Part shown: positions 3,841-17,359 of the stretch, piece by piece
Position numbering within the stretch: position 1 is the stretch's first letter
How the letters are laid out: every line of letters begins with the position of its first letter
Assembly (NCBI RefSeq): GCF_002003465.1
Contig: NZ_BDDQ01000040.1
Location: 1-17,359 of the forward strand
Length of the DNA stretch: 17,359 nucleotides
Direction: 5' to 3'
From: Caenibacillus caldisaponilyticus
Lineage (GTDB): Bacteria > Bacillota > Bacilli > Bacillales > Sporolactobacillaceae
Position numbers and translations under genes: made by a program
Notes under the pieces: model-generated
Database searches by the model: none
Told to the model about the DNA's origin: nothing
Seen by the model: the letters and a program-made list of their open reading frames with translations, nothing else

Positions 3841-4407
3841 ATGGAGATTATGGATTTAATCAAATCCCGCCGTTCCATTGGCGCTGTGGAAGATAGAGAG
3901 GTACCGGACGATGTGATCCGGGAATTATTGGAGGCTGCGATATGGGCGCCGAACCATAAAAAAACGGAGCCTTGGAAATTTCGCGTCGTCAAAGGAGAAG
4001 GGCGCGTAAAATTCGGTGAAGAAATGGCGCGCATTGCGGCGGCCAAGGCTGCGGGCTTGAGCGAAGAAGAAGCGCAAAAGAAGATTGAAAAAGCACGAAA
4101 AGCTCCGCTGAGAGCGCCGGTCATCATCGTCATCGCCACGAGCCCGTCCGGAAAAGTGCCAGAAATAGAAGAAGTGGCGGCGACCGGCTGCGCCTTGCAA
4201 AACCTCTTGCTTGTCGCAACGGAAAAGGGCCTGGCTACAAAAGTAAGAACCGGGGATATGGCGTATGAAAAAGAGCTGCATAAGTTTCTCCAATTAGATG
4301 AGAACGATAAAATTATCGGTTTTGTTTATGTCGGTTATCCGAAAAAAGAATCGGAGATTAAAGCGCAACGGACTCCGGCCGAAGAAAAAACGATTTGGAT
4401 CGGTTGA
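3841..4407 (+). CDS. nitroreductase family protein
   Basis: 'IKSRRSIGAV...', 'EAAIWAPNHKKTEPWKFRVV' and 'ATGCALQNLLL' are nitroreductase-fold motifs. AAGGAG (3826-3831) lies 9 nt upstream of the ATG. Confidence 0.9.
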   Translation: MEIMDLIKSRRSIGAVEDREVPDDVIRELLEAAIWAPNHKKTEPWKFRVVKGEGRVKFGEEMARIAAAKAAGLSEEEAQKKIEKARKAPLRAPVIIVIATSPSGKVPEIEEVAATGCALQNLLLVATEKGLATKVRTGDMAYEKELHKFLQLDENDKIIGFVYVGYPKKESEIKAQRTPAEEKTIWIG

Positions 4408-5151: not shown

Positions 5152-6420
5152 ATGGATGCACGGGTTCAAGAACTGATTGATTTCATTAGGACAAAATTTG
5201 GATTGCACCATTACGATTTAAAAAGGCACCGGTTCGCGCGGCATGTCAATCTCTTTAATCAAACCGTGTACACATTGAGCATGGAATGGTTTCCGGATCC
5301 GATTATCGCACAAGAGGATGAGGATTTAAATCCGGACGGGACCGCGGTGATTGACATCGACGTCAAGAGCCGCAGGGTTCAGAACGTGATTTTTGTTGGC
5401 GGCAAAACTTATGCCCGCGGCGGGATTGCGTTTGCCGGTCTCGATAAAAACGGCATGATCCAGTGGATCGAACAGGAGACAGGATTAACGTACGGGCTGC
5501 ACTTCCAACTGGAAAGGGAAGAACCAGGGGCGTTCAACTTTCAGGCTTGTTTTGACGGCATCCCGGTTTCGCCGCCCGGGTTTATCGAATTGCGCTGGGA
5601 TCCGAACAGAAACCTCACCTTATTTTCCGTCAGCGGTCCGTTTCCTTCTGAAGAAATGGTCCGGGAGGAAAGCTATGCCCTTTCCCTTGAAAAGGTGGAA
5701 CATCTGACGAAGGATCAATTCCGATTGATCGAACTTCCTTCCTATGAAGAGAAGCGGCTCGTTCCCGTCTATGCGTTGGAAGAGCTCTTTGTCACCAATG
5801 ATGGGTCATCGACGCTGCCTTTTGGACTCATTGAAAATGCAGGATCATTTCTGGAAATCGACAACATTCTGTCTTGGAACAAACCGCTTGCGCTTCCATT
5901 TGAAAGCCAAGCATTGAGTTTTACGGAGAACATAACGGCCGAACAAGCCTTCACCGGCGAGCCACATCCCGATTCTTTGCCGATTACCAAGCCTGAGCAA
6001 GAACAGTGCGTGGAGGCGGTTCGCGATTTTCTGCGCCGGGTTTATCCGAATGACAGCGGAAAATGGCGGCTTCATACGCTGCATCGCGAAAACGGATATA
6101 TTCATGCGACATTGAGAGAAAGCCGGCCCGAGGCCCGCGCGCTTCCAAGAAAACTGATCGTCATGATCGATGCGGAACATTTTCAAGCCGTCAATTATAT
6201 GGATAATCAAGCTTTGTTGGAGATTTTCGGTCCATTGCAAGCGCCTGAAAAAGTTAAAATAAAAAAAGAAGAAGCTTATGAAAAAATAAAAGATCGGATT
6301 GAGTTAAAGCCGGTCTACGTTTATGACTTCAAACAAAAACTCTATGTTTTGTGCGGAAAACTTGATTGCGGCGATGTTGTGGATGCGGTGAGCGGCGAAG
6401 TGCTGGCATTGGATGGATGA
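5152..6420 (+). CDS. YcdB/YcdC (DUF4901)-like protein with PepSY-like C-terminal repeat
   Basis: Long clean 422-aa ORF with a G-rich RBS (5139-5146). The C-terminal 'KKEEAYEKIKDRIELKPVYVYD...VDAVSGEVLALDG' resembles a PepSY module. The overall resemblance to Bacillus YcdC-type proteins is from memory. No signal peptide is visible. Confidence 0.8.
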   Translation: MDARVQELIDFIRTKFGLHHYDLKRHRFARHVNLFNQTVYTLSMEWFPDPIIAQEDEDLNPDGTAVIDIDVKSRRVQNVIFVGGKTYARGGIAFAGLDKNGMIQWIEQETGLTYGLHFQLEREEPGAFNFQACFDGIPVSPPGFIELRWDPNRNLTLFSVSGPFPSEEMVREESYALSLEKVEHLTKDQFRLIELPSYEEKRLVPVYALEELFVTNDGSSTLPFGLIENAGSFLEIDNILSWNKPLALPFESQALSFTENITAEQAFTGEPHPDSLPITKPEQEQCVEAVRDFLRRVYPNDSGKWRLHTLHRENGYIHATLRESRPEARALPRKLIVMIDAEHFQAVNYMDNQALLEIFGPLQAPEKVKIKKEEAYEKIKDRIELKPVYVYDFKQKLYVLCGKLDCGDVVDAVSGEVLALDG

Positions 6421-7893: not shown

Positions 7894-8226
7894 AGAAATC
7901 CTTTATCTGAATGCCGCATACAAAACCGCTTTGTATGACCGAACGGGTTTTTCGATTCTCAAGGTACGGTGATCCTGGTGCCTGGTAAAGGCATCGCTTT
8001 GATGGTTGATCAGTCGGAGGCAGAGCGGCTGACGACCATCATTTTTTATGTTCATTTGCTGATCGTGACGCACTGAGTTTTATCAAGATAAGGCATCTTG
8101 TTCGTTTTATTCGGCGGCGTTTGCCTCACCGATTTTTTAAGGCATCTTTATGTTTGCATATTCGTTATAACGGGAAACTCAATCACTCTCACCCTTTTAT
8201 TCCTCTTATATGTCTTGCAATAAGAA

Positions 8227-8247
8227 TATATCTTATAATAAGATATA
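8227..8247 (+). promoter_or_regulatory. perfect 21-bp palindrome, candidate MarR operator
   Basis: TATATCTTAT-a-ATAAGATATA, 22 nt upstream of the MarR ATG. It overlaps a TATAAT hexamer (8234-8239); TTGCAA lies at 8215-8220. Confidence 0.5.
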
Positions 8248-8268
8248 AATGCGAAAGGAGGCCGCTGT

Positions 8269-8694
8269 ATGCAATTGGACGAGATGGTTGAGACAATCAA
8301 CGAGCAATGGACGGACATCTATTACCTCTTGCATTATGTTTACGATGACAATCTCTCGCATCAAGCCATTCGTTTATTGCAATATATTGAAAAAAACGAG
8401 AAAGCGACCATAGGGGATTTAGCCAAACATTTAAAGGTGTCCCATAATACCGCTTCTGAACATACAAAAAGACTGATGAAAAAAGGGCTTGTGACGAAAC
8501 GCAGAAGCCGAACGGATGAAAGAAAGGTGTTCGTCGCTTTAACTGAAAAAGGCCGTAACGTGCTGTATCGTCATACCCGATTAGATAGGGATAAATTGAG
8601 AAAGGTTTTAGAAAATCTCAGCCCATCGGATTTGGAGATCATACAAAAGGCTTTTTCCGTTTTTAGCGAGGGAGTAAAGCAATGTTTGCGCTAG
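8269..8694 (+). CDS. MarR family transcriptional regulator
   Basis: Winged-helix segment 'ATIGDLAKHLKVSHNTASEHTKRLMKKGLVTKRRSRTDERKVFVALTEKG'. AGGAGG lies 7 nt upstream of the ATG. Confidence 0.9.
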   Translation: MQLDEMVETINEQWTDIYYLLHYVYDDNLSHQAIRLLQYIEKNEKATIGDLAKHLKVSHNTASEHTKRLMKKGLVTKRRSRTDERKVFVALTEKGRNVLYRHTRLDRDKLRKVLENLSPSDLEIIQKAFSVFSEGVKQCLR

Positions 8695-9017
8695 CAAAAA
8701 TCGTCGTATCTGCCGTCATAATTGGAATCGTAACGGAAGTGGCAAAGCGCTTCCCGACATTCGGCGGGATTATAGCCGCATTGCCGTTGGTGAGTTTACT
8801 CAGTTTAAGTTGGCTTTATATTCAAGGGGAACAAACGCCAAATCTAAGCAAATTTGTATTTGGCGTTTTATGGGGACTGCCGGCAACTTTCCTTTTATTG
8901 TTCATTGTCGCTTTGTCCTTAAAGGCTTCCAATTCATTGATTTTATCGATTGTATTAGGCATCGGCGGTTGGGGGGTATTTTTAGTCCTACAGAATATGG
9001 TATTTAAGAACATATAA
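8682..9017 (+). CDS. DUF3147-family small membrane protein
   Basis: 111-aa hydrophobic product ('GGIIAALPLVSLLSLSWLY') overlapping the MarR stop by 13 nt, with a GAGGGAG RBS. The family call is from memory. Confidence 0.75.
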   Translation: MFALAKIVVSAVIIGIVTEVAKRFPTFGGIIAALPLVSLLSLSWLYIQGEQTPNLSKFVFGVLWGLPATFLLLFIVALSLKASNSLILSIVLGIGGWGVFLVLQNMVFKNI

Positions 9018-9027
9018 ATGGATTCCC

Positions 9028-9060
9028 GCGCAGGAGACATATTCTGCGTCTGTTTTTTTT
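9028..9060 (+). terminator. rho-independent terminator of the MarR-DUF3147 unit
   Basis: Stem gcgcag/ctgcgt followed by a run of 8 T. Confidence 0.7.
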
Positions 9061-9067
9061 AGTGATT

Positions 9068-9141
9068 ACATCAAAAAATTTTGATTTATGCATTGACACA
9101 TCAAAAAAAATTGATGTAAATTTATATCAAGAAATTTTGAT
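9068..9141 (+). promoter_or_regulatory. three tandem ATCAA-N6-TTGAT inverted repeats with an embedded TTGACA promoter
   Basis: ATCAAAAAATTTTGAT (9070-9085), ACATCAAAAAAAATTGATGT (9098-9117) and ATCAAGAAATTTTGAT (9126-9141). TTGACA at 9093-9098 abuts repeat 2 (sharing its first base), and a weak -10 (GTAAAT/TAAATT, about 9116-9122) follows. All lie within 100 nt of the ArsR ATG. Confidence 0.6.
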
Positions 9142-9168
9142 CTGTTCTTTTGGAAGAAGGTGTAAGAG

Positions 9169-9564
9169 ATGACTTTAAACACTGAGCAATTGGCTAAAAT
9201 CGCAAAAGCCCTTAGCGATCCTATCCGTTTGAAAATTCTCGATCTCATTCGTGCCGGATATAGTGAATTAGATGTCAATCCTCCGGTTGCTTGTTGCACG
9301 GGCGGCGTTTGCGTCTGTGATATCCAAGAACAGATGGATATGGCGCAATCAAAAGTTTCTTATCACCTGAAAGAACTGAAAAATGCGGGCTTGGTTACAG
9401 AAACCAAGGTAGGGAAGTGGAATTTTTATTCCATAAACCGATCAACATTTCAAGATTATTTGAAAGAAATTTATCGATTATATATTGATGGCGACCCGGT
9501 TGCAACTCATATTGAGCATGGGGAAAGAAGGGAAAGCCCATATGTTCAGCAAAATCGCCCATGA
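9169..9564 (+). CDS. ArsR/SmtB family metalloregulator with extra Cys cluster
   Basis: 'LSDPIRLKILDLI...VCVCDIQEQMDMAQSKVSYHLKELKNAGLV...GKWNFYSI' is the ArsR winged helix. It carries an insertion 'GYSELDVNPPVACCTGG' directly before the CVC site. Confidence 0.9.
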   Translation: MTLNTEQLAKIAKALSDPIRLKILDLIRAGYSELDVNPPVACCTGGVCVCDIQEQMDMAQSKVSYHLKELKNAGLVTETKVGKWNFYSINRSTFQDYLKEIYRLYIDGDPVATHIEHGERRESPYVQQNRP

Positions 9565-10408
9565 TTTCTTTTCCATCGCAGTCGAATTGACTGTTTTATT
9601 CGTCGTGATCTCATTTCTTATCAGTCTCCTTCAAGGGCTCATTCCTTATGACAAGATTAACAAAGCATTGTCCGGGAAGAATACGTTTCTTGGAGTGATC
9701 GCTGCGCTTGTCTTTGCCTTTGTTACTCCCTTTTGCTCCTGTTCAACCATTCCGGTGGTTGTAAATCTGTTAAACAAGCAAGTACGGTTTGGGATTGTGA
9801 TGGTTTTTCTCTTTTCTTCTCCTGTCTTGGACCCAACCATCATCACCTTAATGGCCACTCTACTGGGAGTAAAGGTTGCGGTCGCTTATACCTTGATCAC
9901 TTCTATGTTATCGGCTGTCATTGGGCTTGCTTTAGAAAAATTGGGATTTGAAAAAGCAGTGAAACGGGTTATCATGACCGGATATGAAGAAAAGCAAGTG
10001 ACATTCAGTTTTAAACGGGCTCTAAAGGAAACGCTCGGTTTAATGAAATCTGTTTATCCTTACCTCCTCATCGGTGCGGGCATCGGTTCGATCATCCATG
10101 AGGCGGTACCATCCCAATGGATTTCAGAACACTTTAGTGGTGAAAACTGGTGGTTGGTTCCTGTGGCAGCCATCATCGGAATTCCTTTATATGTCCGAAT
10201 TTCCACGATGATCCCGCTTTCGCAAATATTGATCACAAAGGGAATGGCGTTAGGTCCTGTCATGGCTTTAATGATTGGTTCTACAGGTGCCAGCCTACCT
10301 GAGTTAACCTTGTTAAACTCTATCTTTCAAAAACGGTTAGTCATGGCTTTTGTTGTCTCCGTTGTGATGATGGCCTCTATTTCAGGCTTCCTGTTTTATA
10401 TCATTTAA
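9542..10408 (+). CDS. PF03773/ArsP-type permease with TM CxC motif
   Basis: Polytopic membrane protein. 'FVTPFCSCSTIPVV' and 'FLFSSPVLDP' match the predicted-permease (YraQ/ArsP) family as I remember it. The likely start is ATG 9542, 8 nt after GAAGGGA, overlapping the regulator by 23 nt. The track start 9485 lacks an RBS. Confidence 0.85.
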   Translation: MFSKIAHDFFSIAVELTVLFVVISFLISLLQGLIPYDKINKALSGKNTFLGVIAALVFAFVTPFCSCSTIPVVVNLLNKQVRFGIVMVFLFSSPVLDPTIITLMATLLGVKVAVAYTLITSMLSAVIGLALEKLGFEKAVKRVIMTGYEEKQVTFSFKRALKETLGLMKSVYPYLLIGAGIGSIIHEAVPSQWISEHFSGENWWLVPVAAIIGIPLYVRISTMIPLSQILITKGMALGPVMALMIGSTGASLPELTLLNSIFQKRLVMAFVVSVVMMASISGFLFYII

Positions 10409-10422
10409 AGGAGGTGAAATAC

Positions 10423-10539
10423 ATGCTGAAATGGTTTAGCCAAAAAGAAGAATCCTGTTGCAACATTCAAATCCAAGAAGTGCAATCAGAACAAAAGGAA
10501 CCATGTTGCGGTGAACAAACTGAACAAGAATGTTGCTAA
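10423..10539 (+). CDS. 38-aa acidic peptide with three Cys-Cys pairs (MLKWFSQKEESCCNIQIQEVQSEQKEPCCGEQTEQECC)
   Basis: Too short for the ORF track. AAGGAGGTG (10408-10416) lies 6 nt before the ATG, which is 14 nt after the permease stop. A terminator follows within 10 nt of the TAA. Confidence 0.55.
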   Translation: MLKWFSQKEESCCNIQIQEVQSEQKEPCCGEQTEQECC

Positions 10540-10547
10540 ACATCAAA

Positions 10548-10588
10548 AGCCCTTTGCCCTTGGTGGTAAAGGGCTAACGGTGTTTTTT
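10548..10588 (+). terminator. rho-independent terminator of the ArsR-permease-peptide unit
   Basis: 8-bp stem agcccttt/aaagggct (10548-10555 / 10568-10575); a TTTTTT run at 10583-10588 sits 7 nt after the stem. Confidence 0.6.
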
Positions 10589-10660
10589 AAATAAGTGTAC
10601 CCTGGATGACCCGCGCAGCAACTAAACAAGAATTCCCAGCCATTTTGAACATTTGATTAA

Positions 10661-10686
10661 AGCCACATCTCAAAATCGATGTGGCT
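10661..10686 (-). terminator. hairpin at the end of the minus-strand ars unit
   Basis: 9-bp stem agccacatc/gatgtggct, 8 nt past the remnant's stop. The downstream U-tract on the minus strand is weak (UUAAUCAAAU). Confidence 0.4.
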
Positions 10687-10693
10687 CGGCTTT

Positions 10694-11370
<677 letters not shown>

Positions 11371-11667
11371 GTTGTACACTCCTTTAGTGTAAGATGGATA
11401 CCCAGAGGAGTTCGGTGGAATGGGGGGGCTTGGGAGATGTCTGAACCGTAACGGCAATTGTTTTAAATGCGGTCCTTGTGTTTTTGGCCGTTGGGATCTT
11501 TAAAATTGGCATGTCTGTCGTGGTTTATGGCAGTGCCAGGATGGCGTCTCCTGTTGCGGACCAACCGATCGATAGCCCCTTAGGTTGCCAAATCACGAAA
11601 ATTCATGCAATCAAAAAACGATAAGTGTTAAAACGGATATCCATGACAAGACCAAATCTTCTTTGGC

Positions 11668-11994
11668 TTAATCGCATACAACCTTTAATCCGTTGGCTTT
11701 CAGTTCTTCAATTTCCTTAGAGGTATCCGGGAGTGTTTTGAGAAACTCTTGGAAGAAAGGGAACATGGAACCATCAAGGGAATAAAACACCCACTTTCCT
11801 TGGCGTCGCTCCTTAACGAGTTTTGCATTTTTTAGCTTTCGCATGTGTTGGGAAACGGCCGGTTGAGTCATTTTGAGGAGTTCCACTAATTCGCATACGC
11901 ATAGATCTTCTGTTCTGAGCAAGGAGAGGATGCGTAATCGAGTTTTGTCCCCCAGTGCTTTGTGATACTCCGCTAATTGCTCCCAATCAAGCAT
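11668..11994 (-). CDS. arsR: ArsR family arsenic-responsive repressor
   Basis: 'LGDKTRLRILSLLRTEDLCVCELVELLKMTQPAVSQHMRKLKNAKLV' is an ArsR HTH with a CVC site. GGGGAG RBS. It heads the unit containing arsC. Confidence 0.9.
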   Translation of the reverse strand: MLDWEQLAEYHKALGDKTRLRILSLLRTEDLCVCELVELLKMTQPAVSQHMRKLKNAKLVKERRQGKWVFYSLDGSMFPFFQEFLKTLPDTSKEIEELKANGLKVVCD

Positions 11995-12204
11995 AGATAT
12001 CTCCCCATAAAATATAAAGATATGCTTATATTATAATTTAATAAACATTTATATTCCAGCTAAGATTTTCTCGAGAAACTCAATCTAACACAATGATACG
12101 AGCTTCTTGAGCAGGGAGTAGTCAATATAAATAATAAAACAATGGTTTGATTGTTTGATCATCTTGCGTTATTATTAAAATAATCATTTGAATGTTATAA
12201 TGGG

Positions 12205-12597
12205 GTGTTGTTTTTGGCTGAAGATCGTTGCGATATTTACTGTTATGATGAAGCGAAAGTGCGGCGGGTCCATCGTTCGCTGGAACAAGAAGACTTTCTC
12301 GGCACGGCACAGCTTTTCAAAGCGTTGGCCGATCCGACGCGCCTAAAAATTGTTTATGCTTTGGTTCAAGAGGATGAGCTTTGTGTTTGTGATGTAGCGA
12401 ATATTATCGAATCCACAGTAGCTGCGGCTTCCCATCATTTGCGCTTTCTTCGGAATATCGGCTTTGCGAAGTATCGGAAAGAAGGAAAAATGGTTTTTTA
12501 TTCTCTGGATAATGACCATGTCAAACAACTTGTCCAATTGGCATTCACTCAAAATAAGGGGTTAACCACAAGTGGAGCAAGTAAAAGTTCAAGATAA
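12205..12597 (+). CDS. cadC: Cd(II)/Pb(II)/Zn(II)-responsive ArsR-family repressor CadC
   Basis: The N-terminal '[12 protein letters not shown]' Cys pair plus '[10 protein letters not shown]...AASHHLRFL' closely parallels S. aureus pI258 CadC as I remember it. The start is uncertain: GTG 12205, TTG 12208 or TTG 12214. Confidence 0.9.
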
Positions 12598-14698
12598 AAA
12601 AGTGTACCGTGTTCAAGGGTTCACCTGTGCCAGCTGTGCAGCAAAGTTTGAGGGGAATGTGAAAAAGCTTCCCGGTGTCAGGGATGCCCAGGTAAACTTT
12701 GGAGCCGCTAAAATCACCGTATATGGGGAGCCTTCCATAAAAGATTTGGAGAAGGCCGGCGCATTTGAGAGCCTGAAGATTTATCCGGAAAATCAGGACG
12801 TCCGTATGGAGAGAGAACCCTTTTGGAAGCGGAATGAAGCCATTCAAGTCGGGGTTTCATTGGCGCTTCTCATGATCGGCTGGTTGATGGGTAAGTTCTA
12901 TGGCGAAGACAGCCTTCTTTCTGTAGCTTTTTATTTCCTTTCCATGTTAATAGGCGGATATGCTTTGTTCCGGAAAGGATTGCTAAACCTCACTCGACTC
13001 CGATTTGATATGTATACCTTGATGACGATTGCCGTCTTAGGTGCTGCTTTCATTGGTGAGTGGGGAGAAGGCGCGACTGTGGTCATTCTCTTTGCCATCA
13101 GCGAAGCGTTGGAAACCTATTCCATGAATCAGGCCCGTCAATCCATCCGCGAACTGATGGACGTTGCCCCCAAGCAAGCTCTTGTTCGCCGTGAAGGCAA
13201 GGAGTTCTTGATTCCGGTCGATGAGGTCCAGATAGGAGACATCATGATTGTGAAGCCGGGGCAAAAACTGGCCATGGATGGCGTGGTCGTCAAAGGAAGT
13301 TCCTCAATTAACCAAGCTCCGATTACAGGGGAATCCATCCCGGTGACAAAAAATGTAGGCGATCAAGTATATGCCGGAACGATAAATGAAGAAGGGCTGT
13401 TGGAAGTCAAAGTAACCAAACGCGTCGAAGATACGACCATTGCCAAGATCATCCATTTGGTCGAAGAAGCCCAGGCGGAAAAAGCGCCTTCTCAAACTTT
13501 TGTCGACCGTTTTGCCAAGATTTATACGCCTGCCATTCTGATGGCCGGATTTCTGGTTGCTGTTATTCCGCCTCTTCTGTTCCAAGCGGATTGGAACGAT
13601 TGGATCTATCGCGGGTTGGCTCTTTTGGTCGTGGGTTGCCCATGCGCATTGGTGATTTCAACACCGGTTTCCATAGTGACGGCCATCGGAAATGCCGCGC
13701 GAAACGGAGTGCTGATCAAAGGCGGCATCCATTTGGAGGAAGCCGGAGCGCTTTCCGTCGTGGCCTTTGATAAAACAGGGACTTTAACGCGTGGGGTTCC
13801 GGTGGTGACAGACTTTATTCCGTTGATATCCGACAAAGAAAAAGAGTTCTTAAGCATAGCGGCAACCATTGAGAAACACTCACAGCACCCGTTGGCCTCA
13901 GCGATTTTGCGGAAAGCGGAGGAAGAAGCCGTTCCAATTCGCGAGGTCGAAGATTTCTTCTCTCTGACGGGAAAAGGGGTCCGAGCAAAGATAAACGGGA
14001 TTTATTATTACATGGGCAGTCCTGGACTATTTGAAGAACTCTTGCCGGCCGGCATTCCAGACCAAACGAAGAAACGAATGCTTGATCTTCAACAACAAGG
14101 AAAAACCGTGATGGCATTGGGAACGGAAAGCGAAATGCTGGCTCTGATTGCCGCAGCGGATGATGTAAGGGAAAACAGTAAGGAAGTAATCCGACGGTTG
14201 CATGAACTGGGGATTAAAAAGACGGTCATGTTGACTGGCGATAACCGGGCCACGGCTGAGGCGATCGGTAAACAATTAGGAATTGGCGAAGTTCAGGCTG
14301 AACGGTTGCCTCAAGACAAATTTGAGTTTATCAAACAACTTCGTTCAGACGGTTCCAAAGTCGCGATGGTCGGCGACGGGGTCAACGATGCGCCTGCCCT
14401 TGCAGCCTCTACAGTTGGGATTGCCATGGGAGGAGCCGGTACGGATTCGGCCCTTGAAACGGCGGATATCGTGCTGATGGCTGATGACTTGGGAAAATTG
14501 CCTTTCACCATGCAGTTAAGTCGCAAAGCGTTGCAAATCATTAAGCAGAACATCACTTTTTCCTTAGCAATAAAAACGGTAGCCTTATTGCTCATCGGAC
14601 CGGGTTGGCTCACCCTATGGATGGCTGTCTTTGCGGATATGGGCGCAACGTTGATCGTTACTTTAAATGGGCTGAGATTGCTGAAAGTGAAAGATTAA
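12572..14698 (+). CDS. cadA: Cd2+/Zn2+/Co2+-translocating P1B-type ATPase
   Basis: One N-terminal HMA domain '[12 protein letters not shown]', TM 'CPC' ([13 protein letters not shown]), 'DKTGTLT', 'SQHPLA' and '[10 protein letters not shown]'. GTG start with TAAGGGGT upstream; it overlaps the cadC end by 26 nt. Confidence 0.95.
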
Positions 14699-15165
14699 GC
14701 ATCCGGCGTTTTTCAATGAGAGCAATAACCACATGACTAACAAGCCGTTGAGCGCGTATCATTGTGACATAACTGTCCGCGCGGGCAGATGCGTTCGGGC
14801 GCACCTTCTGGTGGTCGCTCGCCTTCACCGCGATCGAGCTTGTTCCCGCAATCTTTCTTCCCTGAAGCAAACGTGAACCGGGCAACTCATACGATCATAA
14901 CGGCGAGGAAACCCCAGGGCAAATGCGGGCTTCCTTTGAACGGTCGGTGTTCATTCGTTCTGGAGCGGTGGTTGAAGACCTCCCGCCTCCATGAAGAAAA
15001 TTTACCATCAGCACGGGAGAACGAAAAAAGAAAAAAGAGGGTTTCGGCAAACTTTGCGGAATAATATATTTATGGGCGAACGGGAAGTTTAGTTTCAAAA
15101 GGATTCATCATAGGGACGAGAATACAAACATAATCACTAACTAAACGATAAGGAGTCTGTTCGCG

Positions 15166-15561
15166 ATGCAAAAAATCACGACGTTTTTGATGTTCCAAGG
15201 CCAGGCGGAAGAGGCGATGAATTTATATACTTCTCTATTTGACAAGTCGGAAATCATCAGTATTTCCCGTTATGGCGCCAATGAGGAGGGGGAAGAAGGG
15301 ACGGTGAAGCATGCGATATTTTCATTAAACGGCCAAGAATTTATGTGCATTGACAGCAACGTGAAACATGATTTTACTTTCACACCTTCCATTTCATTGT
15401 ATGTCAATTGTGATACGGAAGACGAGCTCGACCGGATTTATGAGAAACTATCCGAGGGCGGCAAGGTTTTAATGCCGTTGGCCGCTTATCCATTTAGTAA
15501 AAAGTTTTGTTGGGTGCAAGATAAATACGGCGTTTCATGGCAACTGAACTTGGCAAAATAA
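15166..15561 (+). CDS. VOC-superfamily protein, PhnB/3-demethylubiquinone-9 3-methyltransferase-domain type
   Basis: 'ITTFLMFQGQAEEAMNLYTSLF...FMCIDSN..FTFTPSISLYVNC...KYGVSWQLN' is typical of this family. AAGGAG RBS. Confidence 0.85.
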   Translation: MQKITTFLMFQGQAEEAMNLYTSLFDKSEIISISRYGANEEGEEGTVKHAIFSLNGQEFMCIDSNVKHDFTFTPSISLYVNCDTEDELDRIYEKLSEGGKVLMPLAAYPFSKKFCWVQDKYGVSWQLNLAK

Positions 15562-15818
15562 CCGGTAAGAGAGGATACCGATAAAAATCCGCACAGCATT
15601 CACCGCTCTTTTATGGGCGGTTTTCTTGTATATGAATACCGCACCGGACCATACACTTTCCCATCATGAACCGCCATTTATCACAATGTCATATTTGGAA
15701 CAGATGGCTGAAAAAATCTTTAAAAGGCCGGGGACATCCAATGTGGAATGGTCCATCATAACATGAGGTTGCCGTCGAGGACGCATATATGCGATTGGAC
15801 GAGTTAGGAGGGGTTAAA

Positions 15819-16481
15819 TTGAAAGGCAGGCAAAAAAGCCGTTCGTTTTTATCGATCCTGACAATATTGATGCTTATGGCCATCATGGGGGCGTGTTCGC
15901 ATAATAAGGAGTCAAATGCGGAAGGAAAACATCGGGCCAAAGTTTACATGGAAGGTTCGTTTTCCATCAACATGGATGATCCCCGGGCAACCGTCGGTGA
16001 CGCGGATTATGTTTTTTTGGCCCGTGTCGATAAAAAAGGAAAAACGGTATACAAAAATAAGGTCCAAATTGAAACAGAAAATGGCACAAAAGAGATTGCA
16101 ACGCCTTATACCAATTATAAAGTCACGGTTTTAAAAAATATAAAAGGCAGCTTGCAAACCGATCAATCGATTCCCGTTCAAAAAGCTGGCGGTATTGACA
16201 AAAAGGGGGATTCCATTGTCATATTTGAGGACGATGCTCTCCCGGAAGTCGGTAAAACCTATGTATTTTTAGCCTATGCGCAAGATGACGGATCGTTATT
16301 AATTTCGGGTCCGCACTCGAACACACTTGTGGCAAATATCGATCGCACCGTCACAAGCCAAACGGTGAACGCTTATGCCAAACAATCTGATGTGGTTTCA
16401 TATTATGAAAAAGCCTTTGATCATCAAATCACCACGGACAGAAAACGCTCGATTTCCAAATATGATACAAGCGCCAATTAA
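15819..16481 (+). CDS. putative lipoprotein of unknown function
   Basis: TTG 15819 lies 7 nt after AGGAGG (15806-15811); the track start ATG 15789 lacks an RBS. N-terminus 'KGRQKSRSFLSILTILMLMAIMGAC' has a basic n-region, a hydrophobic core and a lipobox Cys. Confidence 0.7.
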   Translation: MKGRQKSRSFLSILTILMLMAIMGACSHNKESNAEGKHRAKVYMEGSFSINMDDPRATVGDADYVFLARVDKKGKTVYKNKVQIETENGTKEIATPYTNYKVTVLKNIKGSLQTDQSIPVQKAGGIDKKGDSIVIFEDDALPEVGKTYVFLAYAQDDGSLLISGPHSNTLVANIDRTVTSQTVNAYAKQSDVVSYYEKAFDHQITTDRKRSISKYDTSAN

Positions 16482-16808
16482 TCCGCGATCTAGAGCAACA
16501 TGTTCCATGAGCCTCTTTCATCTTTTTTGTATAGGCACCATGAAACATCGATTTCCTGAATCATGGCAATCAGTAGTGTTTCAGCCCGCTGCAGCAGTGT
16601 AATTAAAAATTTAAGAATACAATATATGTGCATTATTAGGGCCTATTGCTCTAACCATTGTGTCTCATTTCCCGTTCCGATATCGTAATTCAAACATTTA
16701 CGAGATTTATGCAGCGTTCAAAAAAATCTGTGCCAGTCTGCGGGTACCGTCAAGAATTTTGTGTAATGTAAGATAGATAGGGTATCTCTGAAATAGATTT
16801 GGAATAGA

Positions 16809-16876
16809 GGGGGGGCTGGTTCCCCCCCAGGGGACTGAATATTCAGTCTCTTGAGGGGGAAAGGGAGAATCCCCTC
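16809..16876. repeat. three consecutive hairpin-forming inverted repeats just downstream of the transposase stop
   Basis: G7-ctggtt-C7 (16809-16828), the perfect palindrome GACTGAATATTCAGTC (16833-16848), and GAGGGG-N12-CCCCTC (16853-16876). Confidence 0.6.
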
Positions 16877-16900
16877 ATCTCATCTATTTACATTATTTGG

Positions 16901-17359
16901 TTAATGATAACGTTCTTCAAACATTCGCTCGAGGGCTTCCTGCGCTTCGGCAAATCCTCGCAACTTTCGTTCTGCCCATTTCTCGTTAAAATCTTGAACG
17001 GTCAAATATACGACTTTTTCAGCGGCTTCTAAACTGCTCAAACTGTTCATCGGCTTTAGACGTTTCCGAATCTCCTTGATCGTTCGTTCGATGGCATTGG
17101 TCGTATAAATCACACTTCGAATACTGCTTGGATAATCCATAAATGTAAGGAGGACATCCAACTCATTGGCCCAAGATTGAACTTCTCTTGGATATTTGCT
17201 GGACCATTTCGACTCAAACTGTTGAAACATTTGTAACGCCATCTCCTTATTCGGCGCGCGATAAATCAGCTTGAGATCCTCGGCCATTTCGAATTGATCT
17301 TTTTTCCGAACACGGCTGAGGGTGTTGCGGACTTTGTGCACGACACAGCGCTGCACATC
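16901..17359 (-). CDS. IS256-family (mutator-type) transposase, C-terminal part; ORF continues past the window edge
   Basis: 'QRCVVHKVRNTL...', 'IYTTNAIERTIKEIRKR' and 'SLEAAEKVVYL' are conserved C-terminal IS256 transposase blocks. The frame is still open at base 17359. Confidence 0.9.
   Translation of the reverse strand, partial: DVQRCVVHKVRNTLSRVRKKDQFEMAEDLKLIYRAPNKEMALQMFQQFESKWSSKYPREVQSWANELDVLLTFMDYPSSIRSVIYTTNAIERTIKEIRKRLKPMNSLSSLEAAEKVVYLTVQDFNEKWAERKLRGFAEAQEALERMFEERYH

What the first reader, a model, noticed from the sequence alone, without database searches (positions are those of the whole stretch)
10423..10539. Unannotated 38-aa Glu/Gln-rich peptide with three vicinal Cys-Cys pairs, the last at the extreme C-terminus
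Seen: the ORF reads MLKWFSQKEESCCNIQIQEVQSEQKEPCCGEQTEQECC. AAGGAGGTG lies 6 nt upstream of its ATG and a terminator follows directly. Six of 38 residues are Cys, all arranged as CC doublets, in an otherwise acidic, non-hydrophobic sequence with no signal peptide.

Established (from memory): the C-terminal tail of R773 ArsD carries similarly spaced CC doublets (..CCGGNTSCC).

Inference: it could be a minimal metallochaperone or metallothionein-like buffer handing soft metal(loid)s to the CxC permease. Alternatively it is the remnant of an ArsD/thioredoxin-fold partner often found next to such permeases.
Basis: partly seen in the sequence, partly recalled or inferred. Interest (0 to 1): 0.8.

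Follow-up and report, generated by a model that had tools for sequence, protein, structure and literature searches.

The report
Small Cys-Cys partner of ArsP-type permeases
The 38-residue open reading frame is a real, conserved small protein from an unnamed family that always sits next to one type of metal(loid) efflux permease in many bacteria, and it probably catches arsenic-like toxic metals on its paired cysteines and passes them to the pump.

Summary
The ORF at 10423-10539, its Shine-Dalgarno site, three CC doublets and a strong downstream hairpin are all present.

It is not a chance ORF or a remnant. It belongs to an unnamed small-protein family of 28-87 aa.
- The family comprises at least 120 clusters at 50% identity. 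Every member is labelled 'hypothetical' or left unannotated, and none matches Pfam, NCBIfam or PDB.
- The core is a hydrophobic-basic N-terminal stub, an invariant CC, then x-[VI]-x-I-x-E-V-K, followed by 0-5 further CC units (modal period 15 aa).
- The reading frame is under purifying selection.

A family member follows the permease in 70 of 80 loci retrieved through permease homologues. All 10 independent peptide-to-context look-ups also found a PF03773 (ArsP-type, PFC[SA]C motif) permease next door. These look-ups cover Bacillales, Xenorhabdus, Pseudomonas aeruginosa ICEs, a Cupriavidus plasmid and metagenomes. One Bacteroidota protein carries the repeat inside the cytoplasmic loop of a MerT-like membrane protein.

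The associated regulators (ArsR, MarR_ars-like, PadR) all carry vicinal cysteines. Frequent neighbours are ArsN1, ArsM, ArsC and ArsB.

Best reading: a minimal cytosolic thiol-pair relay or chaperone for the permease. This is inferred, with no biochemistry behind it. The C-terminal CC and the resemblance to ArsD are incidental.

The parts
9093..9122 (+). Promoter-like site (TTGACA-18-TAAATT) ahead of the three-gene operon
   Evidence: Consensus scan, 10/12 matches. The number of such sites in the region is not above the shuffle expectation, so this is weak evidence.
9169..9564 (+). ArsR/SmtB-family repressor gene with a four-cysteine motif ACCTGGVCVCD (a vicinal CC plus CVC)
   Evidence: PF01022 at 1.2e-12; NF033788 at 83 bits against a cut-off of 55. 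Sequence.
9542..10408 (+). ArsP-type permease (PF03773) of 288 aa with the membrane motif TPFCSCS. The likely start, ATG 9542, overlaps the end of arsR.
   Evidence: PF03773 at 165 bits against a gathering score of 32.3. It falls below the cut-offs of the SaoE and SO_0444 NCBIfam models. L001 and L002 call the same 288-aa gene.
10408..10416 (+). Shine-Dalgarno sequence AAGGAGGTG, 6 nt upstream of the peptide's ATG and overlapping the permease stop codon
   Evidence: Read directly from the sequence. Equivalent AGGAGG sites precede the homologues.
10423..10539 (+). Gene for the 38-aa Cys-Cys small protein. It has an N-terminal hydrophobic-basic stub (MLKWFSQK), the invariant core CCNIQIQEV, and two further CC pairs.
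10538..10588 (+). Terminator-like hairpin plus U-tract that ends the operon
   Evidence: RNA fold of -24.5 kcal/mol, z = -4.65.

Best explanation
The ORF encodes a member of an unnamed, widespread family of small cytosolic Cys-Cys proteins. These proteins are dedicated partners of a subfamily of ArsP-type (PF03773) permeases that carry a PFC[SA]C motif in the membrane.

The conserved unit has three parts:
- a thiol-sensing repressor (ArsR here; MarR_ars-like or PadR elsewhere, each with vicinal cysteines);
- the permease;
- the CC protein.

Proposed mechanism:
1. The protein is disordered in the apo state.
2. Its short hydrophobic-basic N-terminus keeps it at the inner face of the membrane or on the permease.
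3. The invariant vicinal thiol pair captures a thiophilic substrate from cytosolic thiols. Extra CC units, which arise by duplication of a 15-residue module, add capacity.
4. The substrate is most probably a trivalent arsenical or antimonial, such as As(III), Sb(III) or methylarsenite.
5. The substrate passes by ligand exchange to the permease's CxC site for export.

This is a minimal functional analogue of ArsD for ArsA, or of the cytoplasmic Cys pair of MerT.

Shown here: the gene is real, it is conserved under selection, and it is strictly linked to the permease. Inferred: metal(loid) binding, the direction of transfer, and the identity of the substrate.
For: **Real gene**
- The frame is open in 63/63 distinct core sequences, against stops in 52-54/63 for the other two frames.
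- Codon-position diversity is 0.43/0.29/0.59. pN/pS is 0.48 in frame against 0.91 and 1.11 when shifted.
- The invariant Cys codons alternate between TGC and TGT.
- An SD lies 6 nt upstream.

**Family**
- The profile search found 120 clusters at E <= 1e-3 among 1.84 billion representatives. All are 32-87 aa except one fusion protein.
- In 184 unique peptides, 96.4% of Cys residues sit in CC doublets, and the modal CC-CC spacing is 15 residues.
- Around the first CC, Ile is conserved at 89%, Glu at 95% and Val at 79%.

**Linkage to the permease**
- 70/80 loci retrieved through permease homologues carry the ORF 1-46 nt after the permease stop.
- All 10 look-ups that started from the peptide found an adjacent PF03773 permease with PFC[SA]C at 39-70% identity.
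- Two of those have the opposite order, ArsR-peptide-permease (L086, L091).

**Minimal cassette**
- PadR-permease-peptide travels alone as cargo on P. aeruginosa ICEs and on a Cupriavidus conjugative plasmid.
- MarR-permease-peptide occurs on Priestia and Paenibacillus plasmids.

**Fusion**
- P0110 (Halosquirtibacter) places four CCN[IV]SIEEVKENKPND repeats between TM2 and TM3 of a MerT-like protein, where MerT carries its cytoplasmic Cys pair. Its gene lies next to a PF03773 permease.

**Arsenic context**
- Neighbours in the 80 loci: ArsN1 in 21, ArsC in 20, ArsB in 14 and ArsM in 5.
- An ArsM-like methyltransferase sits directly after the peptide in Xenorhabdus.
- The regulators carry ACCTGGVCVCD, NCC...VCC or CSTQACC.
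- The MarR_ars subfamily is reported to sense As(III)/Sb(III) through Cys36, Cys37 and Cys157 (bioRxiv 10.1101/2021.08.12.456183).

**Slot replacement**
- Where the peptide is absent, the same position holds a Cys-rich DGC-domain protein or ArsM.
Against: - There is no biochemical, proteomic or ribosome-profiling evidence that the peptide is made or binds anything.
- The substrate of this permease subfamily is unknown. The permease scores far below the curated cut-offs for SaoE (84 against 325 bits) and for the SO_0444 Cu/Zn exporters (76 against 300 bits). Characterised ArsP needs no partner when expressed in E. coli (PMC6205960).
- The window also carries cadC/cadA, and 10 of the 80 loci carry CadA. 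Cd, Zn, Cu or Hg therefore cannot be excluded.
- AlphaFold2 gives no structure (pLDDT 60).
- A hydrophobic-moment test of the N-terminus was not significant. A conserved hh-xx-hh pattern is far above scrambles (112/184 against 6.4), but the window peptide itself lacks that pattern.
- 35 of 184 members have only one CC pair, so three-coordinate As(III) binding by one peptide alone is not general.
- The ICE cassette has no other ars genes nearby.
Confidence: 0.55

Rival explanations
1. It is a metallothionein-like sink. The peptide simply sequesters thiophilic metal(loid)s in the cytosol, buffering them while the permease works, with no specific hand-off.
For: - The number of CC pairs varies from 1 to 6 and is expanded by tandem duplication of a 15-aa unit. 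Brevibacillus strains differ at 3 against 4 units, as expected for a dosage-type trait.
- The predicted apo state is disordered.
- The composition is acidic and Cys-rich.
Against: - 35/184 members have a single CC pair, and only the first CC is invariant. That is poor capacity for a sink.
- Adjacency to the permease is strict even when gene order is inverted, and the repeat is fused into a membrane protein.
- The conserved N-terminal stub and the x[VI]xIxEV motif have no obvious role in simple sequestration.
Confidence: 0.15
2. It is a regulatory or gating subunit. The peptide binds the cytoplasmic face of the permease and acts as a substrate-sensing plug or activator, so that transport occurs only when its CC pair is loaded. 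Alternatively, it contributes thiolates to a shared site with the permease's CxC.
For: - The 1:1 gene pairing and tight translational coupling (SD overlapping the permease stop) suggest stoichiometric assembly.
- The non-Cys motifs (I 89%, E 95%, V 79%) look like a protein-protein interface.
- The repeat in the cytoplasmic loop of a MerT-like protein shows the module can be part of a membrane protein.
Against: - No structural or interaction data exist.
- Variable copy number of the whole CCxVKIEEVK unit is odd for a fixed interface.
- 10/80 homologous permease loci lack the peptide, and characterised ArsP works alone in E. coli.
Confidence: 0.15
3. It is a redox helper. The CC pairs keep the permease's CxC thiols reduced or reduce the substrate. 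This would replace the thioredoxin-like proteins said to neighbour other PF03773 permeases.
For: - Thioredoxin-disulfide reductase and Trx-dependent ArsC occur in some neighbourhoods.
This was not tested here.
Against: - Vicinal Cys-Cys disulfides are strained and make poor redox couples (general chemistry).
- No CxxC motif is present.
- No fold is predicted.
- Regulators with matching vicinal-Cys sensing sites point to metal(loid) ligation rather than redox.
Confidence: 0.05
4. It is not a functional protein. It would be a chance ORF, a decayed fragment of an ArsD or thioredoxin-like gene, or an RNA or terminator element that happens to be open.
For: - It is very short and of low complexity.
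- It is unannotated in RefSeq plasmid pJ45TS6.
Against: - There is purifying selection and synonymous Cys codon turnover.
- The family spans 120 clusters across at least three phyla.
- An SD is present.
- There is no Rfam match.
- There is no similarity to ArsD or any Pfam family.
Confidence: 0.02

Closest known systems
ArsD arsenic metallochaperone (PF06953; E. coli R773)
   Same: It is a cytosolic protein encoded in ars operons next to its efflux partner. It uses a vicinal Cys pair (Cys12-Cys13, with Cys18) to bind As(III) and hand it on. It also has extra C-terminal CC pairs (PMC4562236, PMC6205960).
   Different: ArsD is a 120-aa thioredoxin-fold protein that serves the ArsA ATPase. The peptide has no sequence similarity to it, no predicted fold and no conserved third Cys. 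It partners a secondary permease, not ArsA.
SaoC, the CysCys-COOH protein next to the ArsP-family exporter SaoE (NF040734; Haft, bioRxiv 10.1101/2022.07.06.499078)
   Same: It is a 'dark matter' protein with a CC motif, encoded beside a PF03773-family permease carrying a CSC motif. It was proposed to handle a heavy-metal moiety.
   Different: SaoC is about 158 aa with a (lipoprotein) signal peptide, so it is extracytoplasmic. Its CC is invariably C-terminal and is sometimes Cys-Sec. It occurs only in the nine-gene SAO locus of anaerobes. There is no NCBIfam hit here. In the present family the N-proximal CC is invariant and a C-terminal CC is rare (19/184).
MerT cytoplasmic Cys pair and the MerP/NmerA thiol relays of the mer system
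   Same: The logic is a thiol-pair relay between a membrane transporter and the cytosol. In P0110 the CC repeat physically occupies the TM2-TM3 loop of a MerT-like protein.
   Different: MerT imports Hg(II), and its loop cysteines are not vicinal (from memory: Cys76 and Cys82). The window peptide has no membrane segment and pairs with an ArsP-type permease. The MerT match of P0110 is below Pfam's gathering score (25.8 against 32.9 bits).
DUF466 small proteins YbdD/YjiX (Arg-Cys-Cys-COOH) next to CstA-type transporters
   Same: These are very small proteins with a terminal CC, encoded beside a transporter. They were noted as an analogy in the Haft preprint.
   Different: They are unrelated in sequence (no Pfam hit), their partner belongs to a different transporter family, and their context is carbon metabolism.
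Bacterial metallothioneins (SmtA/BmtA)
   Same: They are small, Cys-rich, metal-binding proteins that are disordered without metal.
   Different: Metallothioneins use CxC/CxxC and His clusters around a zinc-finger-like fold, and they are not tied to a permease. Here 96% of Cys residues are in CC doublets and His makes up 0.5% of residues.
DGC-domain proteins (PF08859)
   Same: They occupy the same position directly downstream of homologous permeases in Sporomusa, Pelosinus and Dendrosporobacter, and they are Cys-rich, including a CSGCC motif.
   Different: They are 120-aa folded domains with no sequence relationship to the peptide, and their function is also unknown.

Membership tests
Unnamed CC small-protein family defined here | Invariant vicinal CC followed by x-[VI]-x-I-x-E-V | tested here: met
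   The window peptide reads CCNIQIQEV. The alignments show an invariant CC with I and E at 90% or more.
Unnamed CC small-protein family defined here | Short hydrophobic-then-basic N-terminal stub 9-20 residues before the first CC | tested here: met
   The window has MLKWFSQKEES before the CC, belonging to the 'M-x-W-F-K-K' subgroup. Across the family, mean charge is +2.05 before the first CC and -3.7 after it.
Unnamed CC small-protein family defined here | Gene adjacent to, and on the same strand as, a PF03773 permease with a PFC[SA]C motif | tested here: met
   The permease at 9542-10408 ends 14 nt upstream. The same holds in 70/80 loci and in 10/10 independent look-ups.
ArsD (PF06953) | Sequence match to the ArsD family model | tested here: not met
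   No Pfam or NCBIfam family matched at E <= 1 to 10. The profile found nothing in the PDB, which holds ArsD 3MWH.
ArsD (PF06953) | Thioredoxin-like fold of about 120 aa | tested here: not met
   The peptide is 38 aa. AlphaFold2 gives mean pLDDT 59.9 with no secondary structure.
ArsD (PF06953) | Three-cysteine As(III) site (Cys12, Cys13, Cys18) and adjacency to arsA | tested here: not met
   There is no conserved third Cys near the first CC. No ArsA gene appears in the window or among the recurrent neighbours.
ArsD (PF06953) | Binds As(III) and transfers it to the pump | not testable with these tools
   This needs biochemistry.
SaoC (NF040734) | Match to the NCBIfam model; about 158 aa with a signal or lipoprotein peptide | tested here: not met
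   No NCBIfam hit. The peptide is 38 aa with no hydrophobic signal segment.
SaoC (NF040734) | C-terminal Cys-Cys | tested here: met
   The window peptide ends ...QECC, but only 19/184 relatives do. The match is therefore not a family trait.
Bacterial metallothionein (SmtA/BmtA) | Family model match and a Cys/His cluster pattern | tested here: not met
   No Pfam hit. Cys occurs only as CC doublets, and His makes up 0.5% of residues.
MerT (PF02411) | Three transmembrane helices with CC in TM1 | tested here: not met
   The window peptide has no hydrophobic helix. Only the fusion P0110 resembles MerT, and it does so below the gathering score.
ArsP organoarsenical efflux permease (for the neighbouring gene 9542-10408) | PF03773 membership and a membrane Cys-x-Cys pair | tested here: met
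   PF03773 at 165 bits against 32.3. The TPFCSCS motif is read.
ArsP organoarsenical efflux permease (for the neighbouring gene 9542-10408) | Efflux of MAs(III)/Rox(III) but not As(III) | not testable with these tools
   Only genomic context is available: ArsN1, ArsM, ArsC and ArsB neighbours. Curated NCBIfam equivalogs are not reached.

The most novel reading that the evidence does not exclude
The CC protein is an obligatory second subunit of a two-component ArsP-type transporter. Its N-terminal stub and IxEV strand would dock on the permease, and its vicinal thiols would complete the substrate site together with the permease's CxC. The peptide would then determine substrate loading, gating or specificity. 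In operons with ArsM it could channel freshly made, highly toxic methylarsenite directly from the methyltransferase to the exporter. That would define a new transporter architecture, a secondary permease with a ribosomally made thiol 'antenna'. It would also mean that the many PF03773 'permease' annotations miss half of the system.
Probability: 0.2. Interest if true: 0.8.

Novelty: new variant of a known kind. Interest (0 to 1): 0.66.

Why it matters
- **Knowledge gap.** ArsP-family permeases are among the most common transporters in arsenic islands, yet they are poorly understood. A 2025 review states that no arsP has been recognised in Bacillus ars operons (PMC12607644).
- **What this adds.** A large subfamily comes with a conserved small Cys-Cys partner that annotation pipelines label 'hypothetical' or skip altogether.
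- **Spread.** The compact regulator-permease-peptide cassette rides on plasmids and on ICEs of Pseudomonas aeruginosa and Cupriavidus, so it is a mobile resistance module.
- **If the hand-off model is right.** It would be the smallest known metal(loid) chaperone, a second example after ArsD-ArsA of chaperone-assisted arsenic efflux, and a simple tunable thiol-pair module of interest for biosensing or bioremediation.
- **Testability.** The peptide is 38 residues and can be made synthetically.

Tried and rejected
1. **Word-index search.** I got round this by collecting homologues through the permease and then using profiles.
2. **Split permease tail.** I tested whether the peptide is a split-off C-terminal tail of longer PF03773 permeases; the SaoE and SO_0444 profiles are about 350 long. 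The exhaustive profile search returned no permease-length hits. All hits were 87 aa or shorter except the MerT-like fusion. Rejected.
3. **ArsD or thioredoxin remnant.** Rejected.
4. **RNA element.** No Rfam family reaches its gathering score.
5. **Leader or attenuator peptide sensing Cys-tRNA.** Rejected. The ORF is usually downstream of the permease, it has conserved non-Cys residues, and it exists as a protein fusion.
6. **RiPP precursor.** No maturase genes recur in the neighbourhoods, and the NCBIfam RiPP hit was noise (E = 0.24).
7. **AlphaFold2.** Uninformative (pLDDT 60). Complex prediction with the permease is not possible with the tools available.
8. **N-terminal amphipathicity.** The hydrophobic-moment test was not significant. 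The positional pattern test was significant, but it does not prove a helix or membrane binding. The similarity to the MinD membrane-targeting sequence rests on memory only.
9. **Primary ArsP paper.** PMC4681449 is not held. Statements about ArsP rest on reviews and on memory.
10. **Literature.** Searches for arsP with vicinal cysteine, arsP with PadR, and PF03773 with cysteine found no description of this peptide.
Full report
**1. The observation**

The ORF at 10423-10539 (+) translates exactly as reported: MLKWFSQKEESCCNIQIQEVQSEQKEPCCGEQTEQECC. AAGGAGGTG occupies 10408-10416, 6 nt before the ATG, and it overlaps the TAA stop of the upstream gene.

Directly after the stop codon the RNA folds into a long hairpin at 10538-10585. 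Its energy is -24.5 kcal/mol, with z = -4.65 against 200 shuffles, and it runs into a U-tract at 10583-10588. The simple consensus terminator scan did not flag it, because 7 nt lie between the G+C-rich inner stem and the U-run.

This is the only ATG-ORF of at least 30 aa in the window with two or more CC pairs. None of 300 shuffled windows gave a 30-60 aa ORF with three CC pairs. No Rfam family reaches its gathering score anywhere in the window.

**2. Surroundings in the window**

The ORF is the last gene of a compact + strand unit.
- **Regulator (9169-9564).** An ArsR/SmtB repressor: PF01022, and NF033788 at 83 bits against a cut-off of 55. It carries an unusual four-cysteine stretch, ACCTGGVCVCD.
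- **Permease (9542-10408).** A 288-aa PF03773/ArsP_1 permease at 165 bits, with the membrane motif TPFCSCS.
- **Peptide (10423-10539).** The ORF under study.

The permease scores far below the curated cut-offs of the nearest NCBIfam equivalogs: SaoE at 84 against 325 bits, and SO_0444 Cu/Zn efflux at 76 against 300 bits. Its substrate is therefore not assigned by any curated model.

Downstream lie a thioredoxin-type arsC and an arsR on the - strand, followed by cadC-cadA. The 8-13 kb region has 40-45% G+C against 50-53% in the flanks. A transposase-like fragment ends the window, which is consistent with an acquired metal-resistance island.

**3. It is a conserved gene**

The peptide matches no Pfam or NCBIfam model. 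A word-index search found only its own cluster of three near-identical sequences.

I therefore fetched 80 loci encoding homologues of the permease at 59-77% identity from one-genome-per-species contigs. The genera include Bacillus, Brevibacillus, Paenibacillus, Anoxybacillus, Fictibacillus, Rossellomorea, Halobacillus and Lysinibacillus.

In 70 of the 80 loci a small ORF with at least one CC begins 1-46 nt after the permease stop, usually behind an AGGAGG site. Alignment of 41 of these gives the following picture:
- an invariant first CC;
- near-invariant Ile and Glu residues;
- the consensus M-x-x-L-K-K-L-F-G-K-K-x3-CC-x-V-K-I-E-E-V-K-E, followed by a variable number of further CC units.

Anchoring 63 distinct DNA cores on the first CC gave these results:
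- Nucleotide diversity at codon positions 1, 2 and 3 is 0.43, 0.29 and 0.59.
- pN/pS is 0.48 in frame, against 0.91 and 1.11 in the shifted frames.
- There are no in-frame stops, against 52-54 of 63 in the other frames.
- The two invariant Cys codons vary synonymously (TGC 47 and TGT 16; TGC 38 and TGT 25).

This is protein-level purifying selection.

**4. Size and spread of the family**

A profile of the window peptide plus database hits was searched against 1.84 billion cluster representatives. It found 120 clusters at E <= 1e-3. All were 32-87 aa except one 178-aa protein.

Where sources name these proteins, the name is 'hypothetical protein'. In RefSeq plasmid pJ45TS6 the ORF is not annotated at all. 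A profile search of PDB sequences found nothing.

Across 184 unique peptides:

| Property | Value |
|---|---|
| Cys residues in adjacent pairs | 799 of 829 (96.4%) |
| Peptides with 1 / 2 / 3 / 4 / 5 CC pairs | 35 / 97 / 39 / 12 / 1 |
| Modal distance between successive CC pairs | 15 residues |
| His content | 0.5% |
| Peptides ending in CC | 19 |

The modal spacing corresponds to a duplicated module, CCxVKIEEVKEEKxS. Brevibacillus strains differ by one such module.

The segment before the first CC is hydrophobic then basic, with mean charge +2.05 against -3.7 for the rest of the peptide. A hh-xx-hh pattern occurs in 112/184 peptides, against 6.4 in scrambles. A hydrophobic-moment test was not significant.

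Taxa reached beyond the Bacillales:
- Xenorhabdus and Pseudomonas aeruginosa;
- Cupriavidus;
- the Bacteroidota species Halosquirtibacter laminarini.

**5. Linkage to the permease**

The 80 loci were chosen through the permease, so they are biased. I therefore also went from peptide to context. All ten look-ups found an adjacent, same-strand PF03773 permease with PFC[SA]C at 39-70% identity to the window's permease.
- **Inverted order.** In two metagenomic contigs the order is ArsR-peptide-permease (L086, L091). The pairing therefore survives rearrangement.
- **Xenorhabdus.** The operon is PadR-permease-peptide followed by an ArsM-like methyltransferase.
- **P. aeruginosa.** PadR-permease-peptide sits alone as cargo between the relaxase and the TraG/Trb genes of an integrative conjugative element. 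The peptide is listed in 203 blocks of the index.
- **Cupriavidus basilensis.** The same cassette sits on a conjugative plasmid.
- **Priestia and Paenibacillus.** MarR-permease-peptide occurs on plasmids.

**6. A fusion**

The single long hit is P0110 from Halosquirtibacter. It has an N-terminal MerT/MerC-like pair of helices with CC in the first helix. The MerT matches are E = 3e-7 in NCBIfam and 25.8 bits in Pfam, which is below the gathering score. Then come KRRPKK, four near-identical CCN[IV]SIEEVKENKPND repeats and two more CC pairs, followed by a third helix.

The repeat thus occupies the loop where, from memory, MerT carries its cytoplasmic Cys pair. The gene lies immediately upstream of a PF03773 permease. 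A second MerT-like protein, P0147, has a CC in that loop and a CC-rich tail.

This is a Rosetta-stone type hint that the module works at the cytoplasmic face of a thiophilic-metal transporter. It rests on one or two proteins only.

**7. Which substrate?**

Recurrent neighbours in the 80 loci:

| Neighbour | Loci | Curated model score |
|---|---|---|
| ArsN1 (arsinothricin-resistance acetyltransferase) | 21 | 221 bits against cut-off 170 |
| Thioredoxin-type ArsC | 20 | |
| ArsB | 14 | |
| CadA | 10 | |
| ArsM | 5 | 372 bits against cut-off 263 |
| Acr3 | 4 | |

In 52 loci the upstream regulator is a 151-aa MarR with NCC near the N-terminus and VCC at the C-terminus. A MarR_ars subfamily with Cys36, Cys37 and Cys157 has been reported to respond to As(III)/Sb(III) (bioRxiv 10.1101/2021.08.12.456183). 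The PadR of the proteobacterial cassette has CSTQACC, and the window's ArsR has ACCTGGVCVCD.

All three unrelated regulator scaffolds therefore carry vicinal cysteines, as does the peptide. Where the peptide is missing, the slot holds a Cys-rich DGC-domain protein (Negativicutes) or ArsM.

Characterised ArsP from Campylobacter exports methylarsenite and trivalent roxarsone (PMC6205960). Together this points to trivalent arsenicals or antimonials. The CadA neighbours, the relation to Cu/Zn exporters and the MerT-like fusion keep other soft metals open.

**8. Mechanism**

Shown:
- The gene is real and under selection.
- The family is strictly linked to this permease.
- Its context is mobile, arsenic-flavoured resistance islands.
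- The module can be built into a membrane protein's cytoplasmic loop.

Inferred:
- The vicinal thiols bind the substrate.
- The N-terminal stub keeps the peptide at the membrane or on the permease.
- The substrate moves by ligand exchange to the permease's CxC.

AlphaFold2 predicts no structure (pLDDT 59.9). That fits a peptide that orders only on binding a metal or a partner, but it is not evidence for such binding.

I put 0.55 on the relay/chaperone reading, 0.15 on a plain sink, 0.15 on a gating or regulatory subunit, and 0.05 on a redox helper. About 0.02 remains for a non-functional ORF.

**9. Comparison with known systems**

The peptide works most like ArsD, but it fails every structural membership test for ArsD.

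The closest described situation is SaoC, a CysCys-COOH protein next to the ArsP-family exporter SaoE in the SAO locus (Haft preprint). SaoC, however, is a 158-aa secreted lipoprotein with no sequence relation to the peptide.

The small RCC-COOH proteins YbdD/YjiX next to CstA-type transporters are a looser parallel. Metallothioneins differ in Cys pattern and in genomic logic.

No paper found in the library describes this peptide. A 2025 review states that arsP has not been detected in Bacillus ars operons.

**10. Verdict**

The metallochaperone-type interpretation is plausible and is strengthened by comparative genomics. The 'remnant' alternative is refuted, and the emphasis on the C-terminal CC and on the ArsD tail is misplaced.

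This is an unrecognised small-protein family that is not homologous to any known chaperone. It fits a known functional idea, hence 'new variant of a known kind'.

Noticed in passing
window 9169-9564; L036:2466-2918; L095:5660-6037: Three unrelated regulator scaffolds sit in front of the permease-peptide pair, and each carries vicinal cysteines. The window's ArsR has ACCTGGVCVCD. A 151-aa MarR in 52/80 loci has NKNCC...VCCKPF, resembling the published MarR_ars type. The PadR in the P. aeruginosa, Cupriavidus and Xenorhabdus cassettes has CSTQACC. A PadR-type thiol sensor for metalloids appears not to be described.
   Followed up: partly
L031:3916-4272, L032:3896-4267, L037 (Sporomusa, Dendrosporobacter, Pelosinus): In Negativicutes the slot directly after the homologous permease holds a Cys-rich DGC-domain protein (PF08859, 80 bits) instead of the CC peptide. 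In L056 and L062 it holds ArsM.
   Followed up: partly
L085:5001-5537 (P0110, Halosquirtibacter laminarini) and P0147: These are MerT-like membrane proteins whose cytoplasmic loop (P0110) or C-terminal tail (P0147) consists of CC-rich acidic repeats. P0110 sits beside a PF03773 permease and an ECF sigma factor.
   Followed up: partly
L016/L018 versus L017/L019 (Brevibacillus): Copy number of the 15-residue unit CCNVNIEEVKSDKES differs between close relatives (3 against 4 CC pairs). This indicates recent tandem duplication or deletion inside the gene.
   Followed up: no
L030:~3897-3968: A 23-aa ORF (MEKRIKQVESCCKEEKEKSEEKN) looks like a truncated remnant of the peptide gene. It is followed by a 278-aa methyltransferase-like gene.
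   Followed up: no
window 8001-13000 and 15001-17359: G+C drops to 40-45%, against 50-53% in the rest of the window. The low-G+C part holds the MarR/DUF3147-like pair, the ArsR-permease-peptide operon, arsC, arsR and cadC-cadA. A transposase-like ORF runs off the end at 16901-17356 (-). This looks like an acquired resistance island.
   Followed up: partly
window 8269-9017: A MarR-family gene (8269-8694) overlaps a 111-aa membrane protein gene (8682-9017). The membrane protein matches NF006750 at 167 bits against a cut-off of 101 and is a 'hypothetical protein' of the DUF3147 type. The pair ends at a terminator-like site at 9028-9049. Its function is unknown.
   Followed up: no
window 5152-6420: A 422-aa ORF has no Pfam family on record in the matching contig L001. 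It was not examined further.
   Followed up: no
L084 (NZ_LC597664.1, plasmid pJ45TS6) 4816-5007: RefSeq annotation leaves the 59-63 aa CC-peptide gene unannotated between 'permease' and ArsN1. On Priestia plasmids the homologue is annotated as a 41-aa hypothetical protein. Annotation of this family is inconsistent.
   Followed up: yes
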